Assembly: GCA_018691995.1 (NCBI GenBank)
Contig: JABHJM010000046.1
Coordinates: forward strand, 1 to 34,708
Direction of reading: 5' to 3'
Length of the DNA: 34,708 nt
Source of the DNA: Candidatus Iainarchaeum sp.
Lineage (GTDB): Archaea; Iainarchaeota; Iainarchaeia; Iainarchaeales; JAAZKV01
A model generated the notes under the pieces. The model made no database searches and had not been told where the DNA came from. It worked only from the letters and a program-made list of their open reading frames with translations. Made by a program: the position numbers and the translations under genes. Below are positions 21,099 to 34,700 of the stretch, piece after piece (positions within the stretch are counted from its first letter, which is position 1; every line of letters begins with the position of its first letter).

Positions 21099-21743
21099 TC
21101 ATTTCCTAGCCCAAATGAACCACAATACATACACAACGATTATGTATACAAATAAAACTAGTCTAAACAAGGTATCGTGCGCAATTTCAAACACTGCTTC
21201 ATTTTGACTCATAATGATGTTTAGTGTAACAAAAATTCTAAGGAGATTAAATACATAACCAAGTATTACTGCAACAATTGCCCCAATGACTTTTTTTCGC
21301 CACCCTATTCCAAATGAAGCAAGTATTGCACTTACAAGAATAATAATTTCAAGTGCTCCGCTACAAAGCCAAGAAATAAAGATAGTTTGAGAAGTTTGAT
21401 TAATTTCAAATGAATAAGCTGTTTCAAAGTTTTCAAGTTCTACATTTCCATTACTCACTGTTTCTATTCCTTGTGCACTAAGTAGGCCTTGTGCACTTCT
21501 TCCAGTACTCTCTTGAATAGAAGTTGAAAAGGGTATAGTAATTCCACTAAGTATTAAATAAAATATTAAAAATCCTAAAACAAACCAAACAAATTGTTTC
21601 TTTTGATCTTTCACAATTTTCTTTTCTTGTTCAACAAAATAATTTTTTATCTTATTAGTAGTTTCACAAAACATACATTTTTCGTTTTCTTTACAAAATA
21701 AAATTGGCTTTCCTTTTTTAGGGGTAGATTTCTTTTTTACCAT
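21099..21743 (-). CDS. Minimal exosortase/archaeosortase-family protein (putative Cys transpeptidase)
   Basis: 214 aa. The C-terminal ~100 aa show the family-defining order of catalytic residues within TM helices: ISWLCSGALEIIILVSAILA (Cys in a CSG motif), about 40 aa, NLLRIFVTL (NxxR), about 20 aa, AHDTLFRLVLF (His). The N-terminus is basic with a Cys cluster (CKENEKCMFC), followed by one TM helix and a ~60-aa loop. Confidence 0.65.
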   Translation of the reverse strand: MVKKKSTPKKGKPILFCKENEKCMFCETTNKIKNYFVEQEKKIVKDQKKQFVWFVLGFLIFYLILSGITIPFSTSIQESTGRSAQGLLSAQGIETVSNGNVELENFETAYSFEINQTSQTIFISWLCSGALEIIILVSAILASFGIGWRKKVIGAIVAVILGYVFNLLRIFVTLNIIMSQNEAVFEIAHDTLFRLVLFVYIIVVYVLWFIWARK

Positions 21744-22744: not shown

Positions 22745-25051
22745 ATGAAGATTGGTGGAATGCAAGTTGGAGAGTATGTTGTAAAAAGTGTTGGTGGAAA
22801 GAGAGCACTTATTTTTGATTGTAAACATTGTCCATATAGGGCAAGCATTGCAGAAGATCATCATTGTCGTTTTCACGTTTTAAAAATTTTAGGACAACTT
22901 GAAGCAGATACAGTTGTTTTTGCAGAAGTATATGAGAGAGTATATGCAGAAGCACAAACAAAAATGCTAATGGAAGTAGCAAACCTTGCACAAAAGTTTG
23001 TTGTTCAAAGTATTTGGAGTTATAATCATTTAGGACGACCAAAAAAAGAATGCGAACCTTTCTTTCCAGAAAGACACAGAATAATGGTAAAAATTGCACG
23101 GGACCTAATTACATTCGATCCACTCTTAGCGTACCTAACTCTAATGGAGGAACTTAAGAAACAAGAAGTAAAAGTAAAACAAGGAAGTGCTGAATATATT
23201 GATTGTGCAGAACCCTATGTTGCAACTCTTGTTCAAATGAAAAATTCATTTGATATTTTAACACTTACAATAAAAGCAAGAAAATTATTAACAGAATTAA
23301 CCGAAATTCCAAATACAAAAGTAATGTACAAATCAATTTTTGAAGCAGAAATAAAACCTTCATTTATTGGATCAAAATTATCTTTTGAGGGGATGGAAAA
23401 TTTAGAATTAATGGATGAATATAATGTTCGTGAATCAACAGTACAAGTTTTTTCAGATCCAGATAGGGTAGAAAAAATTTATCAAATTAATCCACCTGAA
23501 TATTCACTAGCGCCAGACCAATATTTTATTCTTAGTAAAACTCGTGAAATAGTTGCATCGTATCGTCCAGGAAAAACATCACTTAGTACAGTTGCAACTT
23601 CAAGAAAATATTTTGAACGTTTATATGAAGCAACAATAAAAGAAGTTGCACAATTTCATAAAGTAAGATTAAGTCCGGGGGAAATGTCTTCACTAAGTAA
23701 AGTAGTAGCTCGTTACACAGTAGGTTATGGTATCCTTGAAGTACTTCTTAATGATAGACGTGTAACAGACATTTATCTTGATGCTCCAATTGGAGGAAAA
23801 CCAATTTATGTTGTGCATAGTGATTATGGGCAATGTCAAACAAATGTTACATTCACTGAAAACGAATCAAATTCATTAATTTCAAAACTTCGTGCAATGA
23901 GTGCTCGTCCATTTGATGAAGCACACCCAGTGCTTGATTTTGATTTACAAGATCTTGAAACACGTGTTGCAGTAATTGGGCCACCCCTCTCACCAAGCGG
24001 AGCAGCTTATGCATTTCGTTTACACAAATTAACTCCATGGACACTTGAACAATTTATTGATGTAGATTATCTAAACCCATTAGCGGCCGGAATGATTTCG
24101 TTCTTTATTGATATGCAAAGTACAACTTTAATAGCAGGTTCACGTGGTAGTGGAAAAACATCTTTACTTGGAGCAACTATTCAAGAAATTCCACAAAATT
24201 CTCGTATAATAATTCAAGAAGACACAATGGAACTTCCAGTTGATTATTTGAAAAATATTGGTTTTAATATTCAAAGACTCAAAACAAAAAGTGCAATTAG
24301 TGTAAGTAAAACAGAAACTGAGGTAGCACCAGAAGAAGCACTAAGAACATCACTACGTCTTGGTGACTCTGCACTAATTTTAGGAGAAGTAAGAAGTACT
24401 GAAGCAAAAGTACTTTATGAAGCAATGAGAGTAGGTGCAGCAGGAAATGTTGTAATGGGAACAATCCACGCAGATAGTGCTTATAGTGTATGGGACAGAG
24501 TTGTAAATGATCTTGGAGTTCCAACAACTTCGTTTAAAGCAACTGATATTGTAATAGTTGCTCGTCCAATTCGTTTCAAGGGGTCACTTACAAGACACCG
24601 TAGAGTTGTAGAAATAACAGAGGTAAAAAAGCATTGGGATAAGGATCCAGAAAGAGAAGGTGGCCTATTAAAGTTAATGTCTTATGAAGCAAAGACTGAT
24701 AATTTAGAATTACAAGAAGACAATTTAAAAGAAAGTGATTTGTTAAAAAAGATTCAAAAAACTTCAGGGTTAAGTGTTAATGATATTTGGTCAGAAATAA
24801 GACTTCGTGGAAATGCAAAACTATTTTTAGTAGAACAAAAAAGTGAACTTGATCTTCCAGAACTTTTAGAAGCAATTAACACTTCTAGTGGAAATAATAA
24901 ATTACTTTTAATGAAAGAAAAAATGATTGAAGAAGAAGGTAGTGTTAATTATGATCAACTTTTAGGCCAGTGGAAAAACTGGGTAACAACAAAACTTATT
25001 CCTCGAGTAAAAAGAGCTAGTGTAGCTAATAAGAAGAAAAAGAAAGAATGA
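22745..25051 (+). CDS. Type II/IV secretion-system ATPase family protein (archaeal FlaI/PilB/GspE/VirB11-like), unusually long
   Basis: 768 aa. Motifs seen: Walker A GSRGSGKTS (24137-24163), Asp box IIIQEDTMELP, Walker B-like LILGEVRSTEA, His box MGTIHAD. Upstream lies the N2-type domain VTDIYLDAPIGGKPIYVVHSDYG...VAVIGPPLSPSGAAYAFR. An extra ~330-aa N-terminal region carries a CKHCPY...HHCRFH cluster. A ~130-aa C-terminal extension ends in KKKKKE. A GTGAG SD-like box lies 4 nt upstream of the ATG. Confidence 0.85.
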   Translation: MKIGGMQVGEYVVKSVGGKRALIFDCKHCPYRASIAEDHHCRFHVLKILGQLEADTVVFAEVYERVYAEAQTKMLMEVANLAQKFVVQSIWSYNHLGRPKKECEPFFPERHRIMVKIARDLITFDPLLAYLTLMEELKKQEVKVKQGSAEYIDCAEPYVATLVQMKNSFDILTLTIKARKLLTELTEIPNTKVMYKSIFEAEIKPSFIGSKLSFEGMENLELMDEYNVRESTVQVFSDPDRVEKIYQINPPEYSLAPDQYFILSKTREIVASYRPGKTSLSTVATSRKYFERLYEATIKEVAQFHKVRLSPGEMSSLSKVVARYTVGYGILEVLLNDRRVTDIYLDAPIGGKPIYVVHSDYGQCQTNVTFTENESNSLISKLRAMSARPFDEAHPVLDFDLQDLETRVAVIGPPLSPSGAAYAFRLHKLTPWTLEQFIDVDYLNPLAAGMISFFIDMQSTTLIAGSRGSGKTSLLGATIQEIPQNSRIIIQEDTMELPVDYLKNIGFNIQRLKTKSAISVSKTETEVAPEEALRTSLRLGDSALILGEVRSTEAKVLYEAMRVGAAGNVVMGTIHADSAYSVWDRVVNDLGVPTTSFKATDIVIVARPIRFKGSLTRHRRVVEITEVKKHWDKDPEREGGLLKLMSYEAKTDNLELQEDNLKESDLLKKIQKTSGLSVNDIWSEIRLRGNAKLFLVEQKSELDLPELLEAINTSSGNNKLLLMKEKMIEEEGSVNYDQLLGQWKNWVTTKLIPRVKRASVANKKKKKE

Positions 25052-25124
25052 TTATACTTTTTATTAGATTTATGTACTTCAAGAATAATTAGGAGAATTT
25101 CAATTATTATATTGGTTTTTTGAT

Positions 25125-25424
25125 CTAAAGTTCTTTTTCATTTCTATATTCTTCAGATAATTTGCCATATTGTTTGAGTAATTCTTCTTTTATTTCAAAC
25201 TCTAAGTCATTAAAATTAGCTCTTCTTTCTCTATACTTGGGAAATTTATTAATCTCTGATTTTAAATCCACGTCTACCAAAACCTTGTTTAACGAAGAAT
25301 AAGTAGTGTGTAATAGCTCCGGTCTTACGTAAGCGGTTGTAGTAAATTCAAATTTTATAGTATTTGTAATATCAGGTGATAATACTCTCGATTTGTTTTT
25401 TAAAAGTTTTTTATTTAAGTATTT
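25125..25424 (-). pseudogene. 99-codon open frame lacking any ATG, overlapping the 3' end of the 221-aa gene in another frame. It may be a frameshifted gene remnant or a continuation.
   Basis: Hand translation of the minus strand gives KYLNKKLLKNKSRVLSPDITNTIKFEFTTTAYVRPELLHTTYSSLNKVLVDVDLKSEINKFPKYRERRANFNDLEFEIKEELLKQYGKLSEEYRNEKEL*. It is bounded by TAG (25427..25425) and TAG (25127..25125). The first possible alternative start (TTG) would give only ~51 aa. Confidence 0.25.
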
Positions 25425-26076
25425 CTAGAATTTCATTAATCTCATCAAGAGATGCTTTTTTTAAAAAATCCCTTTTTGATATTTTAAACACACTCTCATA
25501 ACAACTTCTAACAACTTCCATTTTGGAAGGATCTATATTAAAAATTTTAATTAGCAACTCTAAATCTATATTTTCATAGGATATATCAAAAACATTACCC
25601 CTAGTACTTTTTAATATTGAAAGCTGATTACACATATATTTGTTTATTGGCCCAATAACTCTTGCGTGTTGGATTAAACCACCGTCCAAGTTTCTTCTTG
25701 AATCTATGCAATTAAAGATATTTCGTTGTAAATGTATAAATTTCATTTCGCAATACTTGAAAAAAAGTTCATTCAAATAAATAATGTCGTATTGGTCATC
25801 GACAGTTCTAAATTTAGCCCAGGGGTAGGAACAATCAAAAAAGATTATTTTTTCAGTATTCTCTTCAAAAAATTTGGAAATCTTTTCTTCAAATATCTGC
25901 TTACTATACTTTCGTTTGGCAAAAAAATCTTTCAAAATATTTTGAATAGGTGATCTACTAACCAATTTATAATCACCAGCCTTGAAAAGCATAGATTTTA
26001 TTAGAGGTTCTAAACCATGATGTCCTGAACCCTCTAAACCCACAACATGAACACATAATGGTTTTTCACTTACCAT
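25411..26076 (-). CDS. Hypothetical protein, possibly a P-loop/sulfotransferase-like fold
   Basis: 221 aa. The Gly-rich N-terminal loop VHVVGLEGSGHHGL and the later FIHLQRNIFNCIDSRRN loosely resemble sulfotransferase 5'-PSB and 3'-PB PAPS-binding motifs. No stronger signature is visible. Confidence 0.3.
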   Translation of the reverse strand: MVSEKPLCVHVVGLEGSGHHGLEPLIKSMLFKAGDYKLVSRSPIQNILKDFFAKRKYSKQIFEEKISKFFEENTEKIIFFDCSYPWAKFRTVDDQYDIIYLNELFFKYCEMKFIHLQRNIFNCIDSRRNLDGGLIQHARVIGPINKYMCNQLSILKSTRGNVFDISYENIDLELLIKIFNIDPSKMEVVRSCYESVFKISKRDFLKKASLDEINEILEILK

Positions 26077-26171
26077 ATTTTATTAGCGGTTGTCAAACTT
26101 TAATAAACTTTCTTGTAGCATTCGTGTGTTTTAAGCGTAGTTATTACATGATTTATTTCCAGTGTCATTTC

Positions 26172-29100
26172 TTATTGTGCATTTAATTTATTTAACGCCG
26201 CGTTTTTGATTACTGAAAAACCAAGTCGATTTAAGTGATTAGGGCTAGTTACATGTTCTTTTTTTATGATTTTTGATAGATTTAGAAAATCTATATTAAG
26301 CTGGTCACAACACATTGAAAGTTGATCTATAAATTTTTCTCTTTTGATGAAATTAAATGGGTTGATATGAGAAACTATTAGTAAATGTTTATTTGAAGTA
26401 ATTTCTTTTATTATTTTTAAGTCGTTAAATAGTTCATCTTTTGATTGAATACTAGCAATTTTACTAGGTTTTTCAGAATTATTATCACCATCTCCACGGT
26501 CAGCCGCAAGATGATGGATGTAAAAATCACCTTCTTTATATATTTTTTGCGAACAAATCTCAAGGATAATTGAGCTTGAATTAGAGTATTCGTTTAATAA
26601 TTTTTTTTTGTCAATTTGTAATATATCTTTACCTTCATTTACTTGTAAAAACTGAGATCGAAAAACTTTTGCTTCTAAATTATGAGGGATATCTATCTTG
26701 TTTTCTATGTAATTTAAATATTGAATAAACTCTTTAGTATTATGAGTGTGTTGTATAATATGATGATATGGTAGCGGTTTAACTATTGAATCCATTCTAC
26801 AGGAAGAACTAATAAATAAATTATCCTTATTCTTATGGTCTTGAACCCAAATATCGTTCTTATTAGAGATAATTATTTTTCCTTTATGCCTTTTTACAAA
26901 CACACATATATTACGCTTTTTTGATCCTAAACCGAGATTCTTTTCAAATTTAAATCCTGGAAAAATTCTTTCACAATATTCATAAAATTCTTCCCAAGAT
27001 TGAAAATTCCAGGCTGAAGTTCTGACCCAAGAGCCTTCGTGAGGTTGAGCACCGTGTTCTATGAGTTTAGCTTCTATGATAATTCTGTTACAAGCATTTG
27101 CAACTTTTTGTGCATTTTTTACAACATTTCTCGTGTGATGCAAAACAGAAAATAACATGATAGTACCACAATCTTCAATTTCATCGGTTTGATCAATATC
27201 GACATGATAATAGTTAATTTTCTTGTCCAGTATATTAGCAATAATCTTAGCTGCTATAACTACTCTTTTGTCATTATCAATCCCTGTAATGTTACATCCA
27301 CGGTCATACAAATATTGACAAAGAAGGCCCGTATTACAGCCTATATCTAGTACTTTCTCTCCTTTTTCAAACTTAATGGTGTCAAGTAGTTTTCCTCTAA
27401 TATCTATTTTTCTTGAACCATCTGTAAACACATCCTCACTTTTAATTGTGTGATAAATTCCAGTCTCACTATTAGTTGTAATCTGGTTTTTTATAAGCGT
27501 TGTTTCTCCCAAATTAAAACAATTACTCCTAAAAAGTGTTTTAAGATTTGTTTTCGTGTATTTTTCTAGAAGCCTTATCCAGTTTCTTTTGCCGTATTTT
27601 TGTTCATAATAAGAAGAACAAAATTCAAAAAATTTTTCATTTGAAAAATTACTCTGTTCATCAGTTAGATAAATGGCTTGATCGTAATCGATAAGATGGC
27701 ATAAACTTTTCGAGGAATCAAATCGAATATTTTCAATTTTAATGTCTCCCTGAAATATGCCAAGCCTTTTTTGTTCCAAAATTGCCAAAACAATATCTGC
27801 TAATCTTGGCTCACCATCATTTGGGACATACTCTTGTATAATATATTCGTACTTTTCCTTAATAAGGCGATTTATGTTTTCTCTAGAATTAATTATTTTT
27901 AGCAGCTCCTCTTTTGAAATTACTCCATACTCATAAACTTTAGGACAGGTAACGCACTGCTTGTTATTAAGGTGTTTCATAACCTCATACTCGCTCTTGA
28001 TAGTTCTCTCTTTTCCAGGATTTCTTATTAACTCAATCTTGATAATATAATTACTTTTCGTGTCAATACCTATTAAGACGTCTTCTCGTTTATTAAAATA
28101 AAATTTTTTAAAATTTAAGTTCTTATACTCCCCATGGCGAATTACTTTTTTAAGATTATATTTATTACTGTTGATCAGATTCTTTGAAAGAATATTTTGA
28201 TTAATAGTACTGATTAATCTCTTGTCGTTATTTTCTCGGTTCCTTTGTTTAAGAGTTTTTTTGAAATCTTTCTCATAATTAAAGATAGGGTTTAGCCATT
28301 CAAGATCTTCTTTAAATACTTTTTTTACTAGTGTAAATAATTGAGGATACTTTTCATAATATTTGTAATATTCATTTTGATCTACAGTTCCTACATTTCT
28401 TCTTTGTTTTATATTAATATTTAAATCATATGCCTTATTCCAGATACCTAAAAATTCTTCAAGTTTTTCTGTTTGCCATAATAAATCTATTTGTGTATTG
28501 TTGAATGCATTTCGCTTAAATGTTTTTTTTTGAGGATAAAAATGAGAAATTATTCGATTACTTTTCCCATCACATATTTCTTTGTGAAGAAAATTAACAT
28601 ATTGGGCTATGTTCATATTATCCAGATTTATTCCTTTAGCACTATATCTTTTTTTACACTCATTAAACATTTTATGTTTTAGAAATTCGTATGATGATAT
28701 AACTCTTAAAAAAGGAGATCTAACTATGAAAAAGACCTTTCTTTCTTTAGTCTTAACTTCTTCTTCAAGTTTTGCATCTGATTCTTTTTTACTATTTTCT
28801 CCATAGAATTGTCTTAATCCATCCTTTTGTTCGAAAAGACAAGGAAAATCTAATTTATCTAATGATAAATTACGTATGATAGTCGTTCCAACTTTTGATG
28901 AGCCAACAAACACATGTTTATTATTTTTCCAATAGCGAATTACTTTTTTAAGATTATATTTATTACTGTTGATCAGATTCTTTGAAAGAATATTTTTATT
29001 AGGATTAATGCCCTTGTGGGTGTATTGTGCTGGGTTTAGTGCATCAACAGCAATCAATTCTTTATTCCATAGCTTTATGAAATTAGAAACATTTGATTTT

Positions 29101-30050
29101 TGATGAATTAATACATCACATTTTGCTAGAAGAAGCGCTTCAACTAAAACGTCTTCTCCAAGTTTAAAACCTGACACTTTAGGTAATTTATTTTGTTTTT
29201 TTAATAAGTGCATTTCTCCTCCTTTTGTTCTAAATGCAGGATATTCTATTACTCGATCCCCATACCTTAGTTTAATTCTGTTCAAGATAGTTGAATCATC
29301 AGAAGTTACAAATAATTTTGATTCAGGATTCCTTCTAATAAAACGATTAATTAATCGGAAGTATTCTTTATAAGGAACAGCAGTTATTTCTCCTTCTGGG
29401 GAAGAATTTGAATCACAATTATATCCAAGATTTATTAGTTGGCGTTTTATTTCGATATTGTGTCCCGGCCCACGAAAGTGCACACCCATAACTTTTTTTC
29501 CTTTAAAATTTTCTTCTACGAATTTCTCTACTTTTTTTATTATGTGTAATTTAATAGTAAAAAAATCTCTGAAATCAAAATCTGGCGGATTTACTCTAGA
29601 TAATCCAAATCTTTTTTCAGGGATATTAATAAATTTTATATTGTAATCATTATTTTTTATTAGATTATTTTCCAAATCCCGTTTTAGTTCCATTGCGGAC
29701 TTCACATGATCATTTAATACTGGAAAATAGTCTTCAATATGTTCAGTTTTTTTAAGCTGAAAATAATAGTCAAATACATTTCTTTCTCCATTATGCTCCT
29801 CTGGATCCCAATAGCATGTCTTTTTTGTCCAATAGGGTATTACAATATCTGGAGTTTGTTTTTTATTATTTTCATACAAAAATTTTGAAAATTCTATTAG
29901 TAAAGAAAATAATCCTGCATCTCTTCCATAATAGATTGTTAAATTAGGTTTTTTGTCTTTTGTTTCTTTAGTGTTTTTAGTGCTGGCTAAATTACTCCTT
30001 ATTTTTGTAATTTGTCTTGATTTATTGGGAGATATAGGTTCTATATTCAT
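26172..30050 (-). CDS. 1292-aa multidomain glycan-tailoring protein: fucosyltransferase-superfamily (GT23/NodZ-like) domain, carbohydrate sulfotransferase, protein-kinase-like fold, class I SAM methyltransferase, and a C-terminal SSCR-motif domain
   Basis: aa ~1-345: VMGVHFRGPG, LFVTSDDSTILNRIK and LVEALLLAKCDVLIHQKSNVSNF (fucosyltransferase-like layout). aa ~375-615: VFVGSSKVGTTIIRNL (5'-PSB-like) and FFIVRSPFLRVISSYEF (3'-PB-like). aa ~640-830: YIIKIE, EYEVMKHL, QGDIKIENIRF (catalytic-loop D-x-K-x-x-N) and LIDYDQA (DFG-equivalent). aa ~895-1010: VLDIGCNTGLLCQYL...ITGIDND...IMLFSVLHH (SAM motifs I, II, IV). aa ~1075-1292: NLFISSSCRMDS ... SPNHLNRLG. Confidence 0.7.
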   Translation of the reverse strand: MNIEPISPNKSRQITKIRSNLASTKNTKETKDKKPNLTIYYGRDAGLFSLLIEFSKFLYENNKKQTPDIVIPYWTKKTCYWDPEEHNGERNVFDYYFQLKKTEHIEDYFPVLNDHVKSAMELKRDLENNLIKNNDYNIKFINIPEKRFGLSRVNPPDFDFRDFFTIKLHIIKKVEKFVEENFKGKKVMGVHFRGPGHNIEIKRQLINLGYNCDSNSSPEGEITAVPYKEYFRLINRFIRRNPESKLFVTSDDSTILNRIKLRYGDRVIEYPAFRTKGGEMHLLKKQNKLPKVSGFKLGEDVLVEALLLAKCDVLIHQKSNVSNFIKLWNKELIAVDALNPAQYTHKGINPNKNILSKNLINSNKYNLKKVIRYWKNNKHVFVGSSKVGTTIIRNLSLDKLDFPCLFEQKDGLRQFYGENSKKESDAKLEEEVKTKERKVFFIVRSPFLRVISSYEFLKHKMFNECKKRYSAKGINLDNMNIAQYVNFLHKEICDGKSNRIISHFYPQKKTFKRNAFNNTQIDLLWQTEKLEEFLGIWNKAYDLNINIKQRRNVGTVDQNEYYKYYEKYPQLFTLVKKVFKEDLEWLNPIFNYEKDFKKTLKQRNRENNDKRLISTINQNILSKNLINSNKYNLKKVIRHGEYKNLNFKKFYFNKREDVLIGIDTKSNYIIKIELIRNPGKERTIKSEYEVMKHLNNKQCVTCPKVYEYGVISKEELLKIINSRENINRLIKEKYEYIIQEYVPNDGEPRLADIVLAILEQKRLGIFQGDIKIENIRFDSSKSLCHLIDYDQAIYLTDEQSNFSNEKFFEFCSSYYEQKYGKRNWIRLLEKYTKTNLKTLFRSNCFNLGETTLIKNQITTNSETGIYHTIKSEDVFTDGSRKIDIRGKLLDTIKFEKGEKVLDIGCNTGLLCQYLYDRGCNITGIDNDKRVVIAAKIIANILDKKINYYHVDIDQTDEIEDCGTIMLFSVLHHTRNVVKNAQKVANACNRIIIEAKLIEHGAQPHEGSWVRTSAWNFQSWEEFYEYCERIFPGFKFEKNLGLGSKKRNICVFVKRHKGKIIISNKNDIWVQDHKNKDNLFISSSCRMDSIVKPLPYHHIIQHTHNTKEFIQYLNYIENKIDIPHNLEAKVFRSQFLQVNEGKDILQIDKKKLLNEYSNSSSIILEICSQKIYKEGDFYIHHLAADRGDGDNNSEKPSKIASIQSKDELFNDLKIIKEITSNKHLLIVSHINPFNFIKREKFIDQLSMCCDQLNIDFLNLSKIIKKEHVTSPNHLNRLGFSVIKNAALNKLNAQ
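28137..28198. repeat. Copy 1 of a perfect 62-bp direct repeat inside the 1292-aa gene
   Basis: gcgaattacttttttaagattatatttattactgttgatcagattctttgaaagaatatttt is identical to 28935-28996. It encodes (Q/K)NILSKNLINSNKYNLKKVIR on the minus strand. Confidence 0.9.
28935..28996. repeat. Copy 2 of the perfect 62-bp direct repeat inside the 1292-aa gene
   Basis: Same 62-mer as 28137-28198. The offset is 798 nt (266 codons, in frame). The two copies bracket the sulfotransferase module. Confidence 0.9.
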
Positions 30051-30264: not shown

Positions 30265-31350
30265 ATGGAGAAAAATAAATCAAAATTAAGTTTCCCAGGA
30301 AATAGAAAATTTACTATTGGGGGTGCGCCAAGTGGCGTTGGGGATTATTTCATGCGTTGGCTATTTTTTTATACAAATATGCATGAATTGGGCTTATCAT
30401 ATTTACATACGCCCGCAAATTTAACAAAAACTCATACAACTGATGCCTATGATAAATTAACTGAAATTTTAGGATTTGGTATATTTACCAAGATTTCTCA
30501 GACAGATCAAGAGAATATACTAAATCTAAGTTTATTAGAGCTTATTGAAGCTTATGAAAAAGGAGGAAAAGAAGCGTTTAGAGAATATGTCATAAGCCAA
30601 GATTCAAATGAAAATACTATCTTCATGATTGATGTTAATGAAAGGAGAAATATTGGTGGTAAAGCCATGATGGGAAATATCTCTGAATTATTAAAACCAA
30701 CTAGATTCAAAATTAATACGATGCGAGAAGAATATTTAGGAAATATCGAATCTTTAACAGAATCACCTATTCAAAAAAATAAAATTAACATTGCAGTCCA
30801 TGTAAGACGAGGCGATCTTTCATTATTTGCATCTTTTTTCAGACTTGCAAACAATGCTCATTATCCTATTAAATTTTTTAAAGAAAAATTTTTACCCATT
30901 AAATATTATTTAGTTATTTTAGATGAATTAGTTAATATTATAGGTGAAGATAATTGTCATATTAATGTATTTTCTGATGGTAATTATAAGGCAGTAAATA
31001 TAATGATTAATAATAAGCTAAAAGATAATAATAAGGATAAAATAATAGAATCATTAAAAGAAAATGATCTTGATGCTGAATTCCTTGCTTTTAATAAATA
31101 CAAAAATGTTTCTTTATACATCGGAGATGATTTTGACTTATTTAAAAAATCATTCTGCGGTTTGACACATTCTGATGTAGTTATTGGAGCTAAAGAAAGT
31201 TCATTCTTTTTTATATCAAAATATTATAAGAAGTATGGGGATCAAGTAAGAATAGAGTTTTTAGAAACAAGAGAATGCACATTTGATAAAGAAGAGTTAA
31301 TTAGAAACAATAGAATCTCAAAAGCATTATCAAAAAATAGGTTTAATTAG
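30265..31350 (+). CDS. Fucosyltransferase-superfamily glycosyltransferase-like protein (GT11/GT23-type HxRRGD motif)
   Basis: 361 aa. NIAVHVRRGDLS matches the alpha-1,2-fucosyltransferase motif I (HVRRGDY). INVFSDGNYKA and SDVVIGAKESSFFFISKYY occupy the positions of the later family motifs. An AGGTAAT SD-like box lies 3 nt upstream of the ATG. Confidence 0.5.
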   Translation: MEKNKSKLSFPGNRKFTIGGAPSGVGDYFMRWLFFYTNMHELGLSYLHTPANLTKTHTTDAYDKLTEILGFGIFTKISQTDQENILNLSLLELIEAYEKGGKEAFREYVISQDSNENTIFMIDVNERRNIGGKAMMGNISELLKPTRFKINTMREEYLGNIESLTESPIQKNKINIAVHVRRGDLSLFASFFRLANNAHYPIKFFKEKFLPIKYYLVILDELVNIIGEDNCHINVFSDGNYKAVNIMINNKLKDNNKDKIIESLKENDLDAEFLAFNKYKNVSLYIGDDFDLFKKSFCGLTHSDVVIGAKESSFFFISKYYKKYGDQVRIEFLETRECTFDKEELIRNNRISKALSKNRFN

Positions 31351-31391: not shown

Positions 31392-33404
31392 TTAATTTTT
31401 TTCAGTTTTTATTTTTGGCGTATACTCTTTATCTTTAATTAATTTTACATATGGTGAAAATAAACAATTATCTTTTAGTTTGTAATTGTTTTCTTTGATT
31501 TCAATTAGTTTAGCTACATAAAAATCAAACAAACCAGTAAATGAAGGATGGTATATTTTGTATTTGTATAATCTATCAGTTAAAATATATTTTTTATAAA
31601 ACTCATAAGTTTTTTTCTTTTTCTCCAAGATTTTATCTTTATTTTGAAGATCCTTTGCTAGAGTTTGATATATTTTTTCTGGAGAATCTTTATCTGTGTC
31701 AAAAAACCAGAATAAATCATCTTTATTAATGCCTATTTTTTCCCACCCAAGTTTGTCATGGGTTGTATCAATACAAGCGATAGCATTAGATGCTCTTAAA
31801 TAATCAAAAAAAGTATGTGTCCATGGGCGATCTCCTCTAATAGAAATTGCAATATCGCTTTCTTTTAATTTGTTAAAAAAAGAAATATACTCTTCTTTAA
31901 CTGGTTTGTTTTCCTTATAAAGCTTTACGGGTTTGTTTGGATCTTTTCCTTTAGGTTTCCAAAAAGATAGTTCAAAATTAGGGTTGTTAAATTTATTAAG
32001 TTCATTTATTATTCCTCGAGAGCTATGAGTTTTTCTTCCAGACCAAAATAGTTTGTTATAATATTTTTTGTGATTATTTTCATCAAAATCTAGCCAATAA
32101 TATTCTTCTTGTGAAATGTTTGAATAAGGAATGTAGGTTCCCATTTTTGAAATTACATTTGGAAAATTTACATCAGCACCGGAAAATATTGTAATGTTGT
32201 AATTCTTTATTTCTGAAACAAAAAAGTTTTGATCAACACATTTTCCATTTCGGATGGAATTAAATTTAGTCCTTTCTTTTCCACCATTTGATAGAAATAA
32301 AATAATTTTTTTCTCATATTTTTTTAGTTTTTTAAGTTCTGGAGAAATCGAGTTTTTTGAACCAAGCATAATAAAATCTGATTCATCAAGACTATTTGTT
32401 GGTTCAAAAAAATCCCCATAGTAGGTTACTAACAAATTGTTTATTTTATTATACACTGCAATTCTTTTTTCAGAACTTTTTCCATTTACAAATAATTTTA
32501 TCTTTTTATTATTAATTGATTTATTCGCATTAGCTGAAATTCTTGAATTCTTATTTTTAAAATGATTATACAATTTGTTTTCAAATTTTACACGTTCATT
32601 GAAAATATCCTGTTCTTCCTTCAATAGTTCTGAGAATTTTGTTTTTTGCGAAGTTTTATTCTCATTTTTTAAATTATCTAGTTGCCCATAAGCAATAAAG
32701 CCAAATTTTTTATTTAGTTTGTTAAAAAATTCACTTAATTTTTCATAGAGCCCAACATCAAATTTAGATAGTATTTGGATTGCTTTTTTATATTCTTTTT
32801 CAGTTAGGGGTTTGTTATTTGAAATCTCTGTTAAATTTCTTATTAACCAACTATCAGAAAGTTTTGTTGATTTAATATATTCTTTGAAAGACATGTTTTC
32901 AAAAGTACCAAAGTTTCTTTCCCATTTTCCAACATCTCTTAAATAATAAAAAAGAGAATTATGCCGACCAAATGGTTCTCGCAAAATTGTAAAGTAACTT
33001 GGCTTGCAAGAGGTAATTTTACAACAATCGTCAATAACTTTAACACTTTGACTAAAACTACCGACAATTGGATTAATTGTTGCTCCATAAATCACTACTT
33101 TTTCTTTTCTTAAATATTCTTTAAAGTTTTCTAATGTAATTGAATTTCTAAGAGAACTACAATAATAATTTTTTTCCACAACTCCAACAATAAATGTAAT
33201 TTTTCCTGGAATCTTAAATGTGCTATCAAGATTTATATTAAACTGAGCAAGGCGTGAAAATTTTTTTGGTTTTTTTTGGCATATTAAAAGACTATTTTCT
33301 TCAGATATTTTTTTTCTTAAGCTTGGAATCATCATTTTAAATTTAAAAAAAGTGCCTGCACACTTTGGAATATGATAAAACACAGGAACTATTCTCTTAC
33401 TCAT
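31392..33404 (-). CDS. Fusion protein: N-terminal carbohydrate sulfotransferase domain plus C-terminal exostosin (GT47)-like domain
   Basis: 670 aa. N-terminus: VFYHIPKCAGTFF (5'-PSB, compare HIPKTGGT) and YFTILREPFGRHNSLFYYL (3'-PB RxPxxRxxS). C-terminus: YISFFNKLKESDIAISIRGDRPWTHTFFDYLRASNAIACIDT resembles the exostosin C-terminal motif (S.F.l.prGd....t.rf.eal.ag.IPV). Confidence 0.55.
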   Translation of the reverse strand: MSKRIVPVFYHIPKCAGTFFKFKMMIPSLRKKISEENSLLICQKKPKKFSRLAQFNINLDSTFKIPGKITFIVGVVEKNYYCSSLRNSITLENFKEYLRKEKVVIYGATINPIVGSFSQSVKVIDDCCKITSCKPSYFTILREPFGRHNSLFYYLRDVGKWERNFGTFENMSFKEYIKSTKLSDSWLIRNLTEISNNKPLTEKEYKKAIQILSKFDVGLYEKLSEFFNKLNKKFGFIAYGQLDNLKNENKTSQKTKFSELLKEEQDIFNERVKFENKLYNHFKNKNSRISANANKSINNKKIKLFVNGKSSEKRIAVYNKINNLLVTYYGDFFEPTNSLDESDFIMLGSKNSISPELKKLKKYEKKIILFLSNGGKERTKFNSIRNGKCVDQNFFVSEIKNYNITIFSGADVNFPNVISKMGTYIPYSNISQEEYYWLDFDENNHKKYYNKLFWSGRKTHSSRGIINELNKFNNPNFELSFWKPKGKDPNKPVKLYKENKPVKEEYISFFNKLKESDIAISIRGDRPWTHTFFDYLRASNAIACIDTTHDKLGWEKIGINKDDLFWFFDTDKDSPEKIYQTLAKDLQNKDKILEKKKKTYEFYKKYILTDRLYKYKIYHPSFTGLFDFYVAKLIEIKENNYKLKDNCLFSPYVKLIKDKEYTPKIKTEKN

Positions 33405-33488: not shown

Positions 33489-34700
33489 TTATAAATATTC
33501 ATTTACTGACCCACCAATGGAATAACTCTTCATTCCAGCTCTTCCAAATGCCTGAACTGTTTCTTTTGATACATCTGCAAAGGCAACAGAACCAACTTTT
33601 TTTTCTTTTAATAAATTAATTATTTCATTAATTTCTTTTGGATTTTCTATTACTTCAATAATTTTATTATTATTTATGATTTGCAGGTGGCTAGCTTTTT
33701 CACCATCGGCAGAAATAAGAGCATCTCTTGGTTTATCATCAGTAAAAACAGCAATAATGTCATCTAAATCAAGATCATTTATCTTTTCCAAAAAATAAGT
33801 GGGTATGCCGTGGACTGCTCGATTAAGTTTTTCTAAAGGCATCGCTTCATTTTGTGCATAAACATATCCTAGTTCTTTAACATCAAAATCAGAGTAGCTT
33901 CTTCTTGGATTTATTAATAATTCTCTGTGTGTAAATAACTTTTCCACCCTGCTTAAATCAAACTTCTTTGTGGGCCAATGTTTTTCTAGAACAGATTGCA
34001 ATACTTTATATTGTAATTCGTTGCTTGGGTGATTGCTGTTATAAAACATTCTTTTTTTCTGATAATTGTCTCTAAACCAATTACCCAAACTTGAGAGGTC
34101 GCATTTGTCACAAATTTCACAATATTTTTCAACGCTCCCATCACGAATTAAGGAGGCGTCTTTTACTAAATCGTTATAATATTTATCCATGTTCCTAATG
34201 TATTTTTTATATTTTTCTCTGAATTCCTCGTGATATAAGAGCATAAGATCAAGCGTCATTAAAAGTAGCGGAAGATTTGGAAGAGTAATATCTTTTTCAA
34301 AATCTTTTTTTACCTTGTAAATATTTTTTTCACAATCTGGATCTGTATTCAAATATTCAAAGTTTATTACGTATTCATGAATAAAGATGTCGCTGTTTTT
34401 TATTAGTCCAACTAGGCAAGGATCTGAAAAAATGTTTTCCTGTATTTTTTCATTAAGTCCTTTTTGAGTTCTAATAACTACATAGTTATAATTATCTCCA
34501 AATTCTTTTATTCTCAAAAAAGCATTCAAATGATGTATAACTCTGCAAGATCCCAAAATCAAAATATTTTTTTCAGCAGAATTATTTTTAATTAAGTAAT
34601 CTCCTTGTTCATTTAGGTAAGTAAATTCATTAACTGTTATGGGGGTTAAATCAGGATCGGTTTTGTTTTTAATTGTTTTATTTTGATTAAATTCTTGCAT
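33489..34700 (-). CDS. Hypothetical protein with a GSCR...NHP motif pair (WcbI/GSCFA-like polysaccharide-modification domain?) and an unassigned C-terminal domain
   Basis: 403 aa. NILILGSCRVIHHLNAF lies near the N-terminus and KRMFYNSNHPSNELQYKVLQSVL about 170 aa later. This pattern recalls WcbI-type capsule enzymes (GNCQ ... NHP). The context is a glycan-modification island. Confidence 0.3.
   Translation of the reverse strand: MQEFNQNKTIKNKTDPDLTPITVNEFTYLNEQGDYLIKNNSAEKNILILGSCRVIHHLNAFLRIKEFGDNYNYVVIRTQKGLNEKIQENIFSDPCLVGLIKNSDIFIHEYVINFEYLNTDPDCEKNIYKVKKDFEKDITLPNLPLLLMTLDLMLLYHEEFREKYKKYIRNMDKYYNDLVKDASLIRDGSVEKYCEICDKCDLSSLGNWFRDNYQKKRMFYNSNHPSNELQYKVLQSVLEKHWPTKKFDLSRVEKLFTHRELLINPRRSYSDFDVKELGYVYAQNEAMPLEKLNRAVHGIPTYFLEKINDLDLDDIIAVFTDDKPRDALISADGEKASHLQIINNNKIIEVIENPKEINEIINLLKEKKVGSVAFADVSKETVQAFGRAGMKSYSIGGSVNEYL

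What the first reader, a model, noticed from the sequence alone, without database searches (positions are those of the whole stretch)
26172..30050. Single 1292-aa polypeptide fusing five glycan-tailoring modules (GT-like, sulfotransferase, kinase-like, SAM methyltransferase, SSCR-motif domain)
Motifs for each module appear in order along one uninterrupted ORF:
- Fucosyltransferase-like: GVHFRG, FVTSDD, LLLAKCDVLI...SNVSNF.
- Sulfotransferase PAPS motifs: SSKVGTT and VRSPFLRVISSY.
- Kinase catalytic loop and metal-binding motif: GDIKIENI and IDYD. Gln replaces the usual His/Arg before the catalytic Asp.
- SAM motif I: VLDIGCNTG.
- A C-terminal domain resembling the N-domain of the 403-aa neighbour.

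Enzymes that glycosylate, sulfate, phosphorylate and methylate are normally separate proteins. I do not recognise this five-way fusion as a described architecture. It would constitute a one-protein tailoring line for a surface glycan.
Basis: partly seen in the sequence, partly recalled or inferred. Interest (0 to 1): 0.65.

Follow-up and report, generated by a model that had tools for sequence, protein, structure and literature searches.

The report
Five-module glycan-tailoring fusion enzyme
One intact 1292-residue gene in a marine DPANN archaeon joins a fucosyltransferase-like, a sulfotransferase-like, a kinase-like, a methyltransferase and a probable acetyltransferase module; this combination was found nowhere else, and it was built recently from genes that are separate in close relatives.

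Summary

Support for the five modules:
- GT23 (NodZ/FUT8-like) glycosyltransferase: strong. The family profile hits NodZ at E=5.6e-25.
- SAM methyltransferase: strong.
- Protein-kinase-like domain: good. The profile hits CK2alpha at about 1e-6, and Lys, Glu, Asp, Asn and Asp all align.
- Sulfotransferase: probable. Pfam gives 21.6 bits against a cut-off of 22, and both PAPS motifs are present.
- C-terminal "SSCR" domain: moderate. It looks like a TviD-type SGNH-fold O-acetyltransferase module with a Cys...His pair.

The fusion is not an assembly artefact. A second public assembly carries the same ORF, and unitigs from four runs cross the junctions.

The fusion is young. A sister population has the kinase-methyltransferase unit as a standalone gene at about 95% nucleotide identity. 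The breakpoints fall exactly on that gene's start and stop codons. A perfect 62-nt duplication brackets the sulfotransferase module.

The exact architecture is a singleton in the databases searched. The design principle is already known, though: WbdD and Klebsiella O7 ORF6 combine methyltransferase, kinase and glycosyltransferase modules. The claimed resemblance to the 403-aa neighbour is not statistically supported. I rate it a new variant of a known kind, of moderate interest.

The parts
26172..30050 (-). Whole ORF: 1292 aa, no predicted transmembrane segment, stop codon at 26172-26174.
   Evidence: The same ORF is present in a second assembly.
29016..29945 (-). Module 1, aa ~36-345: GT23-like (NodZ/FUT8-type) glycosyltransferase. 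It has the motif-I arginine R193 in GVHFRG.
   Evidence: Pfam NodZ scores E=1.7e-5 (24.3 bits, below the cut-off of 28.3). The family profile A3 hits NodZ 2HHC at E=5.6e-25 and FUT8 at about 1e-10. The module is 68% identical to aa 681-1001 of P0002. About 1000 homologues were found.
28935..28996 (.). Repeat copy R1: 62 nt, perfect. It encodes the GT-ST linker and the native N-terminal leader of the sulfotransferase module (NILSKNLINSNKYNLKKVIR, aa 353-372).
   Evidence: Standalone sulfotransferase homologues begin with a similar leader. The 62-nt unitig has twice the depth of its flanks in runs X1 and X2.
28199..28934 (-). Module 2, aa ~373-617: PAPS-type sulfotransferase-like domain. The 5'-PSB motif is SSKVGTT (K386), the 3'-PB motif is VRSPFLRVISSY (R444, S452), and H503 is invariant.
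   Evidence: Pfam Sulfotransfer_2 scores E=2.7e-4 (21.6 bits, cut-off 22). The 44%-identical standalone P0036 scores 24.4 bits, above the cut-off. hhalign against two Sulfotransfer_2 proteins gives E=2.7e-4 and aligns both motifs. The family profile has no PDB sequence hit.
28137..28198 (.). Repeat copy R2: 62 nt, identical to R1. It forms the junction between the end of the sulfotransferase module and the kinase-like module (aa 619-638).
   Evidence: Flank unitigs end 30 nt into the repeat, as expected for k=31.
27441..28130 (-). Module 3, aa ~641-870: protein-kinase-like domain. Its catalytic residues are K671, E687, D769 (in QGD), N774 and D788 (in DYD).
   Evidence: Family profile A1 hits CK2alpha at E about 1.5e-6. 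These residues are invariant in 21 sequences. The AF2 model has pLDDT 91.4.
26892..27440 (-). Module 4, aa ~871-1053: class I SAM-dependent methyltransferase (motif I VLDIGCNTG; D925).
   Evidence: Pfam Methyltransf_23, _11 and _25 score above their cut-offs. Foldseek top hits are methyltransferases at E about 6e-9.
26823..26891 (-). Linker, aa 1054-1076. It begins where the sister population's standalone gene has its stop codon. It keeps a trace (NKNDIWVQDHK) of the tail of an unrelated sulfotransferase domain.
26175..26822 (-). Module 5, aa ~1077-1292: TviD_N-like, SGNH-fold domain. Block I is S-S-C (C1084). Block V is S-P-N-H (H1272), where the homologues have Asp instead of Ser.
   Evidence: Standalone homologues of 211-244 aa are 48-69% identical. 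PF27354 TviD_N is recorded as a faint hit on those homologues. The AF2 model has pLDDT 83.9. Foldseek best hits are SGNH enzymes such as OafB, TesA, CE2 and PatB, at E=3.6e-3 or weaker and TM 0.3-0.4. TviD chemistry is described in PMC8760489.
26059..26133 (-). Conserved 75-nt junction: the 5' region plus the first 5 codons (MVS-E/K-K) of the downstream 221-aa gene. In the sister population it lies 59 nt after the standalone methyltransferase stop codon and leads into a different gene, one carrying a GT23-like module.

Best explanation
The ORF encodes a real, soluble, five-module enzyme that finishes or decorates a cell-surface glycan at the cytoplasmic face. The host is a marine DPANN archaeon, labelled Candidatus Diapherotrites.

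**Modules, in order**
1. A GT23-like, GDP-sugar-dependent (fucosyl-type) glycosyltransferase.
2. A PAPS-type sulfotransferase.
3. A protein-kinase-like sugar kinase.
4. A class I SAM methyltransferase.
5. A TviD-like SGNH-fold O-acetyltransferase with a Cys-His pair.

**Proposed mechanism (inferred, not shown)**
- The glycosyltransferase adds a terminal 6-deoxyhexose.
- The kinase and methyltransferase act as a unit, as in WbdD and Klebsiella O7 ORF6. They install a phosphate, possibly capped as a methyl phosphate, or else a separate phosphate and an O-methyl group.
- The sulfotransferase adds sulfate and the SGNH module adds O-acetyl.
- Tethering the modules in one chain would make all decorations land on the same acceptor.

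**Origin (shown by comparison)**
The protein is a recent mosaic of three units that are separate genes elsewhere:
- a GT-ST pair, as in P0037;
- a kinase-methyltransferase gene of about 414 aa, which exists as a standalone gene at about 95% nucleotide identity in a sister population;
- a TviD_N-like gene of about 212 aa.

The joins fall exactly at the standalone gene's start and stop codons. The ST-kinase join carries a 62-nt duplicated filler.
For: **The ORF is real**
- The ORF is intact.
- A second assembly is 99.98% identical and has the same ORF.
- Unitigs cross position 28128 (X1, 27763-28166) and position 26891 (X3, 26592-26958; X4, 26733-26959), and they cross R1 (X4, 28668-29012).
- The repeat unitig has twice the depth of its flanks, and all four flanks have equal depth.

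**Module identities**
- GT23.
- Sulfotransferase.
- Kinase-like.
- Methyltransferase.
- SGNH/TviD-like.

**Glycan role**
- Three different homologue contexts of the kinase-methyltransferase family all lie inside glycan clusters. These contain GT2/GT4 genes, epimerases, GDP-sugar genes, sulfotransferases, PIG-L and WbqC.
- The GT module is fused in P0002 to a homologue of the window's 670-aa neighbour and to another sulfotransferase.
- The ORF has no transmembrane segment.

**Mosaic origin**
- All kinase-methyltransferase relatives are standalone proteins of about 414 aa.
- All C-terminal-domain relatives are standalone proteins of about 212 aa.
- P0037 is a GT-ST fusion that aligns continuously over aa 170-605.
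- The sister-population contig matches 26891-28128 at about 95%, skips the SGNH module and resumes at 26062-26133.
- L012 has a stop codon after FVKI, where this protein reads FVKR-HKGK.
- The sister gene's ATG coincides with this protein's E641 codon.

**Published precedent for kinase-methyltransferase capping and multi-module glycan enzymes**: PMC3482155 and PMC11231755.
Against: - No biochemical or transcript evidence exists. RNA runs from the source study hold none of the sequence.
- The sulfotransferase sits just under Pfam's cut-off, and its profile hits no solved structure.
- The SGNH assignment rests on weak Foldseek scores (E 3.6e-3 or worse, TM 0.3-0.4) and 'faint' Pfam hits. The block-V Asp is Ser in this protein.
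- The kinase domain shows no detectable similarity to the WbdD kinase. Only the methyltransferase part matched WbdD.
- No Wzm/Wzt-type ABC transporter turned up among the window ORFs scanned with Pfam or among the genes called within 8-10 kb of three family members. The chain-terminator analogy is therefore only an analogy.
- The fusion is very young. dN/dS against the standalone sister gene is about 0.46 over 248 codons, so selection on the fused form is not demonstrated.
- The donor sugars, the acceptor and the order of reactions are unknown.
Confidence: 0.6

Rival explanations
1. Assembly artefact. The 62-nt repeat, or the near-identical kinase-methyltransferase gene of a more abundant sister population, caused the assembler to stitch separate genes into one ORF.
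For: - A 62-nt perfect repeat sits at two module junctions.
- Depth in the source runs is only about 3-6x.
- A sister population with a 95%-identical standalone gene exists at 26-67x depth in other samples.
- Only Logan contigs were available. No raw reads could be inspected.
Against: - Two different public assemblies give the same ORF.
- Unitigs at 100% identity cross the kinase|R2 boundary, the methyltransferase|SGNH boundary and R1.
- The window's kinase-methyltransferase sequence is the low-depth variant, not the sister variant, which differs at 59 positions.
- The repeat unitig has twice the depth of its flanks and all four flanks have equal depth. This fits GT-R-ST-R-kinase.
- The only alternative path through the graph would need a 798-bp circular ST-R element.
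- No joints were seen in X1-X4.
Confidence: 0.05
2. A real but accidental and very recent fusion that is not a coordinated five-activity enzyme. One or more modules may be inactive, misfolded or on the way to loss, and the locus is simply a recombination hotspot that shuffles cassettes.
For: - The breakpoints lie exactly at the start and stop codons of a standalone gene that is 95% identical in a sister population.
- dN/dS is about 0.46.
- The block-V Asp of the SGNH module is replaced by Ser in this protein only.
- A fossil fragment of another sulfotransferase tail lies at 25113-25310.
- The architecture is a singleton.
Against: - All family-invariant catalytic residues of the GT, ST, kinase and methyltransferase modules are kept.
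- Cys1084 and His1272 are kept in the SGNH module, and the Asp is dispensable in TviD.
- The reading frame is kept across four joins and 1292 codons in two assemblies.
- The ST flanks have the same depth as the GT and kinase flanks, so no ST-less subpopulation is seen.
Confidence: 0.2
3. The kinase-methyltransferase unit, and possibly the whole protein, acts on a non-glycan substrate such as a lipid head group, a small metabolite or a protein, rather than capping a glycan.
For: - The kinase-like domain's weak Pfam hits are to small-molecule kinases: fructosamine kinase and APH.
- Phosphoethanolamine N-methyltransferases and UbiG are among the best methyltransferase matches.
- There is no similarity to the WbdD kinase, and no ABC transporter was found nearby.
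Against: - The unit is fused to a GT23-like glycosyltransferase and to carbohydrate-type sulfotransferase and acetyltransferase modules.
- Every homologue context examined is a glycan biosynthesis cluster.
Confidence: 0.12

Closest known systems
Klebsiella pneumoniae O7 ORF6 (PMC11231755)
   Same: One polypeptide of about 1400 aa combines a methyltransferase-kinase pair with glycosyltransferase modules. It is cytoplasmic and acts on the growing end of a surface glycan. The kinase is a divergent domain that ordinary annotation does not recognise.
   Different: - ORF6 runs MT-kinase-CBM-coiled coil-GT2-GT2. This protein runs GT23-ST-kinase-MT-SGNH.
- ORF6 has no sulfotransferase or acetyltransferase module.
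- No coiled-coil ruler, CBM or ABC transporter is evident here.
- No sequence homology between the two proteins was tested or shown.
WbdD of E. coli O9a / K. pneumoniae O3 (PMC3482155; PDB 4AZS, 4AZW, 4UW0)
   Same: It is a bifunctional kinase plus SAM methyltransferase. The family profile of this protein's methyltransferase part matches the WbdD methyltransferase domain at E about 2e-7. WbdD is a plausible chemical model for methyl-phosphate capping.
   Different: - The domain order is reversed (kinase then methyltransferase here).
- The kinase part did not match the WbdD kinase.
- Many other methyltransferases match as well or better.
- There is no coiled coil or membrane-binding helix.
NodZ and FUT8 (GT23 alpha-1,6-fucosyltransferases; PDB 2HHC, 2DE0)
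   Same: The family profile aligns over almost the whole NodZ chain (E=5.6e-25). The motif-I HxR arginine and the C-terminal conserved Gly/Glu and Ser motifs are present.
   Different: The ORF alone is below Pfam's NodZ cut-off. The donor and acceptor are unknown. Here the domain is the N-terminal module of a larger protein.
TviD, the Vi-antigen O-acetyltransferase (PMC8760489), and other SGNH-fold glycan O-acetyltransferases (OafB, PatB)
   Same: - It has an atypical block I with Ser-Cys in place of GDS, and TviD's Cys18 is the nucleophile.
- It has a C-terminal block V His.
- Its predicted alpha/beta/alpha fold best matches SGNH enzymes, including OafB.
- Its homologues carry Pfam TviD_N hits.
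   Different: - The Pfam hits are only 'faint' and the Foldseek scores are weak.
- The block V Asp is Ser here.
- There is no TPR domain.
- The acyl donor and the direction of the reaction (transferase or esterase) are unknown.
Other multi-module glycan-tailoring proteins, recalled from my own knowledge and not tested here: chlorovirus PBCV-1 A064R (two rhamnosyltransferase domains plus a methyltransferase) and Geobacillus WsaE (methyltransferase plus two rhamnosyltransferase domains)
   Same: Glycosyltransferase and methyltransferase activities are fused in one chain that builds and caps a surface glycan.
   Different: These have fewer kinds of chemistry, with no kinase, sulfotransferase or acetyltransferase module, and their GT families are unrelated.

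Membership tests
GT23 (NodZ/FUT8-like glycosyltransferases) | Profile-level sequence homology across the catalytic domain. | tested here: met
   A profile of this module plus 24 homologues hits NodZ 2HHC at E=5.6e-25 (profile positions 7-271) and FUT8 at about 1e-10. The single sequence scores 24.3 bits against the Pfam NodZ cut-off of 28.3. Homologues P0042, P0044, P0049 and P0051 exceed the cut-off.
GT23 (NodZ/FUT8-like glycosyltransferases) | Conserved motif-I arginine (HxR) and C-terminal conserved acidic and Ser motifs. | tested here: met
   R193 in GVHFRG is invariant in 25 sequences. D251, the Gly/Glu in LGEDVL and the Ser in SNVS are invariant or nearly invariant.
GT23 (NodZ/FUT8-like glycosyltransferases) | GDP-fucose donor and alpha-1,6 linkage to GlcNAc. 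| not testable with these tools
   This needs an enzyme assay.
PAPS-dependent sulfotransferases (Pfam Sulfotransfer_2, PF03567) | Profile match at the curated threshold. | tested here: inconclusive
   The module scores 21.6 bits against a cut-off of 22, at E=2.7e-4. The 44%-identical P0036 scores 24.4 bits, P0038 scores 20.1, and P0040 and P0043 have no hit. The family profile has no PDB hit.
PAPS-dependent sulfotransferases (Pfam Sulfotransfer_2, PF03567) | 5'-PSB (P-loop-like, with Lys) and 3'-PB (R...S) PAPS-binding motifs, in the correct order and spacing. | tested here: met
   SSKVGTT (K386) and VRSPFLRVISSY (R444, S452) align to IAKNAGTS and IREPLSRFMSAF of two Pfam-recognised Sulfotransfer_2 proteins. 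hhalign gives E=2.7e-4 and probability 41%.
Protein-kinase-like (PKL/ePK) fold | Profile homology to solved protein kinases. | tested here: met
   The 21-sequence profile hits CK2alpha at E about 1.5e-6 (profile 16-157). A trimmed 12-sequence profile gives E about 2e-3, with only kinases as hits. Pfam alone gives weak fructosamine-kinase and APH hits.
Protein-kinase-like (PKL/ePK) fold | Catalytic residues: beta3 Lys, alphaC Glu, catalytic-loop D-x-K-x-x-N and the metal-binding Asp (DFG equivalent). | tested here: met
K671, E687, D769/K771/N774 and D788 align with CK2alpha K68, E81, D156/K158/N161 and D175 (my own numbering of CK2alpha). They are invariant in the family.
Class I SAM-dependent methyltransferases | Pfam domain above the cut-off, motif I (GxGxG-like), an acidic residue at the end of beta2, and a Rossmann-like fold. 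| tested here: met
   Methyltransf_23, _11, _25 and _12 score above their cut-offs. The AF2 model has pLDDT 91.4, and the top Foldseek hits are all SAM methyltransferases at E about 6e-9. D902, G904 and D925 are invariant.
TviD_N-like / SGNH-fold O-acetyltransferases | Profile match to Pfam TviD_N (PF27354). | tested here: inconclusive
   Only precomputed hits on standalone homologues are available, and they are marked 'faint'. The local Pfam scan of this domain returned nothing.
TviD_N-like / SGNH-fold O-acetyltransferases | SGNH-like alpha/beta/alpha fold. | tested here: inconclusive
   The AF2 model has pLDDT 83.9. Most of the best Foldseek PDB hits are SGNH enzymes: OafB 6se1 at E=3.6e-3, then TesA, CE2, Est24, MsAcT and PatB. 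However, TM-scores are only 0.3-0.4 and no hit has E below 1e-3.
TviD_N-like / SGNH-fold O-acetyltransferases | Block I Ser-Cys nucleophile and block V DxxH. | tested here: inconclusive
   S1083, C1084 and R1085 are nearly invariant and H1272 is invariant in the family. The block V Asp present in the homologues is Ser1269 here. In TviD the Cys and His are required and the Asp is dispensable (PMC8760489).
WbdD / ORF6-O7-type methyl-phosphate chain terminators | Kinase and methyltransferase in one polypeptide. | tested here: met
   The kinase-like and methyltransferase domains are contiguous here and in about 20 standalone 414-aa relatives, though in the reverse order to WbdD.
WbdD / ORF6-O7-type methyl-phosphate chain terminators | Homology of the kinase domain to the WbdD kinase. 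| tested here: not met
   WbdD chains matched only through their methyltransferase region (profile 237-353 to WbdD 41-173), as a single stretch.
WbdD / ORF6-O7-type methyl-phosphate chain terminators | Coiled-coil molecular ruler and a partner Wzm/Wzt ABC transporter with a CBM. | tested here: not met
   The AF2 model of aa 639-1292 has no long helix. No ABC-2 transporter turned up among the eight window ORFs scanned or among the called genes within 8-10 kb of three family members, going by the Pfam hits on record. aa 1-638 was not modelled.

The most novel reading that the evidence does not exclude
The locus is a working 'cassette' system for module-level variation of surface-glycan chemistry. 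Whole catalytic modules are swapped in and out in frame at conserved junction sequences, namely start codons, stop codons and a portable 20-residue leader. The sulfotransferase module, flanked by perfect 62-nt direct repeats, would then be an excisable in-frame switch that lets the population turn sulfation on or off by homologous recombination.
Probability: 0.1. Interest if true: 0.7.

Novelty: new variant of a known kind. Interest (0 to 1): 0.5.

Why it matters
**If all five modules are active**
- This would be the most chemically diverse single-chain glycan-tailoring enzyme described so far. It would combine glycosyl, sulfo, phospho, methyl and probably acetyl transfer.
- It would be a compact reagent for glycoengineering.
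- It would give a direct handle on the unknown surface-glycan chemistry of DPANN archaea, which cannot yet be cultured alone.

**Independent of this one protein**
- The analysis uncovers a widespread, unannotated family of about 414 aa that pairs a protein-kinase-like domain with a methyltransferase. It occurs in marine glycan clusters. Databases label it only as 'methyltransferase'. It is a candidate new type of phospho/methyl-phosphate glycan-modifying enzyme.
- The fused gene and its 95%-identical unfused sister gene form a rare natural before-and-after pair. The breakpoints are at the start and stop codons, and a 62-nt templated duplication marks one join. This pair could be used to study how multidomain enzymes arise.

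Tried and rejected
**Leads that did not hold up**
- C-terminal domain compared with the 403-aa neighbour: BLASTP E=0.29 and hhalign probability 0.5%. Homology was rejected beyond the short motif.
- I expected the 209-aa gene that follows the 414-aa family member in L001 to be the SGNH partner (a Rosetta-stone link). There is no similarity.
- This protein's sulfotransferase module compared with the Sulfotransfer_2 protein of L001 by BLASTP: no hit. Only the profile-profile comparison worked.
- The 1-nt 'left out' variant at 26370 comes from contigs of other, more abundant organisms. They match only about 30 nt of the conserved SHINPF region. It is not a frameshift in this genome.

**Searches that found nothing useful**
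- The family profiles of the sulfotransferase and the C-terminal domain hit no solved structure by sequence.
- The Foldseek search with the two-domain kinase-methyltransferase model returned only methyltransferases in the top 50, so it says nothing about the kinase fold.
- Exact-pattern scans for the 62-nt repeat core in JGI metagenome contigs (two patterns) and in GTDB genomes returned nothing.
- RNA runs from the source study hold none of the sequence.
- PHROGs gave only generic methyltransferase hits.

**Neighbour ORFs**
- The 670-aa, 361-aa and 221-aa neighbours have no Pfam hits, and the 670-aa and 361-aa ones (the two searched) no PDB hits. hhalign to the GT23 and sulfotransferase profiles is not significant.
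- Their sulfotransferase-like and fucosyltransferase-like motifs are seen by eye only.

Full report
**Observation**

The window has one uninterrupted ORF at 26172-30050 on the minus strand: ATG start, 1292 codons. The protein has no hydrophobic segment long enough to span a membrane. The identical protein apart from one residue (T858I) is in NCBI as 'MAG: methyltransferase domain-containing protein [Candidatus Diapherotrites archaeon]'. The window averages about 31% G+C.

**Is the ORF an assembly product?**

The evidence says no.
- The NCBI contig (GCA_018664565.1, JABJNZ010000030.1, 29,166 bp) has a different length from the window. It is 99.98% identical over 9,879 nt, with two substitutions and no gaps, so a second assembly gives the same ORF.
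- Logan unitigs from four separate marine metagenome runs tile the ORF at 99% identity or more. They show no joints and no indels of their own.
- Unitigs cross the critical boundaries. X1 27763-28166 crosses the kinase N-terminal boundary. X3 26592-26958 and X4 26733-26959 cross the methyltransferase/C-terminal-domain boundary. X4 28668-29012 crosses the GT/ST repeat.
- Depth is low, about 3-6x, and only contigs were available, not raw reads. Direct read-pair confirmation is still desirable.

A perfect 62-nt direct repeat (28137-28198 and 28935-28996) lies in frame with 798-nt spacing. It is the only repeat of 40 nt or more in the whole window. It encodes NILSKNLINSNKYNLKKVIR at aa 353-372 and again at aa 619-638, which brackets the sulfotransferase module exactly.

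In runs X1 and X2 the 62-nt repeat is its own unitig at about twice the depth of its four flanks, and the flanks have equal depth. That is what GT-R-ST-R-kinase predicts. It also argues against a sizeable subpopulation that lacks the ST module.

Standalone sulfotransferase homologues start with a similar leader; P0040, for example, begins NLIQKNVITSQNYSKSDFVEY. The first copy is therefore the native leader of the ST module. The second copy is a duplicate that serves as the ST-kinase linker.

**Module 1 (aa ~36-345): GT23-like glycosyltransferase**

- Pfam gives only a sub-threshold NodZ hit (24.3 bits against 28.3).
- An exhaustive search with aa 1-640 found about 1000 relatives.
- A profile of this module with 24 of them hits the NodZ crystal structure at E=5.6e-25 over nearly the whole chain, and FUT8 at about 1e-10.
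- The motif-I arginine (R193 in GVHFRG) is invariant.
- I take the GT23-like assignment as established. The donor and acceptor are unknown.

**Module 2 (aa ~373-617): probable sulfotransferase**

- Pfam Sulfotransfer_2 scores 21.6 bits against a cut-off of 22, at E=2.7e-4.
- A 44%-identical standalone relative of 255 aa (P0036) passes the cut-off.
- A profile-profile comparison with two Pfam-recognised Sulfotransfer_2 proteins gives E=2.7e-4. It aligns both PAPS-binding motifs: SSKVGTT with K386, and VRSPFLRVISSY with R444 and S452.
- The assignment is probable but not proven.

**Modules 3 and 4 (aa ~641-1053): kinase-like domain plus methyltransferase**

- These two modules together correspond to a conserved standalone family of about 414 aa. 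About 20 members were found at 35-57% identity, each covering 97-99% of the query. Databases label them only as methyltransferases.
- The methyltransferase half passes several Pfam cut-offs. The AF2 model (pLDDT 91.4) finds only SAM methyltransferases as top fold matches.
- The N-terminal half is protein-kinase-like. The family profile hits CK2alpha at about 1.5e-6.
- The alignment places K671, E687, D769-x-K-x-x-N774 and D788 on the kinase beta3 Lys, alphaC Glu, catalytic loop and DFG-equivalent Asp. All of these residues are invariant in the family.

**Module 5 (aa ~1077-1292): TviD-like SGNH domain**

- This domain matches standalone proteins of 211-244 aa at 48-69% identity. Their precomputed Pfam label is TviD_N (PF27354), flagged as faint.
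- TviD is the Vi-antigen O-acetyltransferase, an atypical SGNH-family enzyme. Its block I is Gly-Ser-Cys with Cys18 as the required residue. Its block V is DxxH with a required His and a dispensable Asp (PMC8760489).
- This domain family has a nearly invariant S-S-C-R near its N-terminus (C1084 here) and an invariant N-H-L near its C-terminus (H1272 here). The Asp that precedes it in the relatives is Ser1269 in this protein.
- Most of the best PDB matches of the AF2 model (pLDDT 83.9) are SGNH enzymes, led by the O-antigen acetyltransferase OafB. The scores are weak: E 3.6e-3 or worse, TM 0.3-0.4.
- The 'SSCR domain' is therefore best read as a TviD-like acyltransferase or esterase module, with moderate confidence.
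That neighbour does have a weak WcbI hit and a G-S-C-R motif.

**How the protein was assembled**

The units exist separately elsewhere.
- P0037 (597 aa) is a GT-ST fusion that aligns continuously with aa 170-605.
- All kinase-methyltransferase relatives and all C-terminal-domain relatives that I found are standalone proteins.
- No other protein shares more than the GT, or GT+ST, part with this one.

The most telling evidence comes from a sister population.
- Three runs from other studies hold a 1714-nt contig at 26-67x depth. It matches 26891-28128, exactly the kinase-methyltransferase unit, at about 95% nucleotide identity.
- That contig then skips the 757 nt of the C-terminal module and resumes at 26062-26133.
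- An independently assembled ENA contig (L012) shows the same arrangement. The methyltransferase ends ...RNICVFVKI-stop, where this protein reads ...RNICVFVKR-HKGK.
- The sister sequence upstream of 28128 supplies an ATG exactly at this protein's E641 codon.
- The complete standalone CDS, minus its start and stop codons, is therefore embedded in the fusion.

Other traces of rearrangement:
- The sister gene is followed by a gene that carries a GT23-like module 48% identical to module 1. That gene shares only its 5' region and first five codons with the window's 221-aa gene.
- The linker before module 5 keeps a trace of the tail of an unrelated sulfotransferase domain. A 66-residue fossil of that same tail lies at about 25113-25310.
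- The locus is therefore a hotspot of module-level rearrangement, and the fusion is young.
- dN/dS against the sister gene is about 0.46 over 248 codons. This neither proves nor excludes selection on the fused form.

**Function**

Three kinds of evidence point to a glycan substrate.
- The fusion partners are themselves glycan enzymes.
- The GT module is fused in P0002 to a homologue of the window's 670-aa neighbour and to a Sulfotransfer_1 domain.
- All three genomic contexts of the 414-aa family that I examined are glycan clusters. They contain GT2/GT4 genes, epimerases, GDP-sugar genes, PIG-L, WbqC, other methyltransferases and sulfotransferases.

The closest published designs are WbdD, a methyltransferase-kinase that caps O9a/O3 polymannose with methyl phosphate (PMC3482155), and K. 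pneumoniae O7 ORF6, which has a methyltransferase-kinase terminator, a CBM, a coiled coil and two GT2 modules in one chain (PMC11231755).

I propose that this protein works like those enzymes, as a cytoplasmic, tethered set of finishing activities. I do not file it as a member of their family, for three reasons:
- the kinase part does not match the WbdD kinase;
- the domain order is reversed;
- no coiled coil or ABC transporter is evident nearby.

The modules, their order, their conserved catalytic residues and their origin are shown by the evidence. The substrates, the products and any cooperation between modules are inferred.

**Verdict**

The exact five-module architecture is a singleton in the protein collections searched. 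It is a new variant of the known multi-module glycan-enzyme theme, with an unusually clear record of how it formed. Interest is moderate, at 0.5.

Noticed in passing
window 28137-28198 and 28935-28996: A perfect 62-nt direct repeat (93 nt at 88%) lies in frame, 798 nt apart, and brackets the sulfotransferase module. It is the only repeat of 40 nt or more in the window. Its unitig has twice the depth of its flanks. Recombination between the copies would delete the module in frame.
   Followed up: yes
window 26891-28128; runs X6-X8; locus L012: A sister population reaches 26-67x depth in other seawater metagenomes. It carries the kinase-methyltransferase unit as a standalone gene at about 95% nucleotide identity. 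The breakpoints relative to the window fall at that gene's ATG and stop codon. The gene is followed by another gene that carries a GT23-like module, 48% identical to module 1.
   Followed up: yes
window ~25113-25310 (minus strand), between the 221-aa gene and the FlaI-like ATPase gene: This is a fossil fragment of about 66 residues. It is 53% identical to the C-terminal tail of the Sulfotransfer_1-like domain of P0002 (E=4e-19) and contains an in-frame stop. NCBI calls part of it a 48-aa gene. The same tail is fused in frame to the TviD_N-like domain in L013.
   Followed up: partly
window 31392-33404 (minus strand, 670 aa): This ORF has no Pfam or PDB hit. It is 45% identical to aa ~9-670 of P0002, where it is fused to the GT23-like module and a sulfotransferase domain (a Rosetta-stone link to module 1). 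By eye it carries sulfotransferase-like motifs (HIPKCAGTF, ILREPFGRHNSLFYY). hhalign support is not significant.
   Followed up: partly
window 30265-31350 (+, 361 aa), 25411-26076 (-, 221 aa), 33489-34700 (-, 403 aa): - The 361-aa ORF has an HVRRGD motif typical of fucosyltransferase motif I.
- The 221-aa ORF has a GLEGSGHH P-loop-like motif.
- The 403-aa ORF has a weak WcbI hit (E=2.7e-4) and a G-S-C-R motif.

Together with the fusion these look like a glycan-tailoring gene cluster, but none of the three passes a profile threshold.
   Followed up: partly
window 3832-11028 and 12599-21001 (minus strand): Two giant ORFs of 2398 and 2800 aa have a hydrophobic segment at about aa 42-65. They are rich in Ser and Thr and 23% identical to each other over their first ~730 aa. 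They are probably surface proteins and possible carriers of the glycan.
   Followed up: no
window 21099-21743 (minus strand) and 22745-25051 (plus strand): A small exosortase/archaeosortase-family protein of 214 aa (TIGR04178, E=5e-11) lies next to a FlaI/TadA-like secretion ATPase of 768 aa. The ATPase carries an N-terminal extension of about 290 residues.
   Followed up: no
loci L006 and L007 (homologues of the C-terminal domain): Standalone TviD_N-like genes sit in contigs packed with many small same-strand ORFs (MazE-like, UvdE, DUF6899, an epimerase, a UDP-glucose dehydrogenase). These contigs look phage-like. The family had no PHROGs hit.
   Followed up: partly
window 26354-26384: Contigs from other, more abundant organisms match only this 31-nt stretch, which encodes the conserved SHINPF motif, and they do so with a 1-nt gap. 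It is not a frameshift in this genome.
   Followed up: yes
window 28146 / 28944: One contig in X3 and one in X7 match the repeat only from its 10th base onward and then continue with unrelated sequence. Read on the coding strand, that sequence gives ...NLKK-LQKEWKQIEP. It is a third context for the leader, probably another sulfotransferase gene in the same or a related genome.
   Followed up: no
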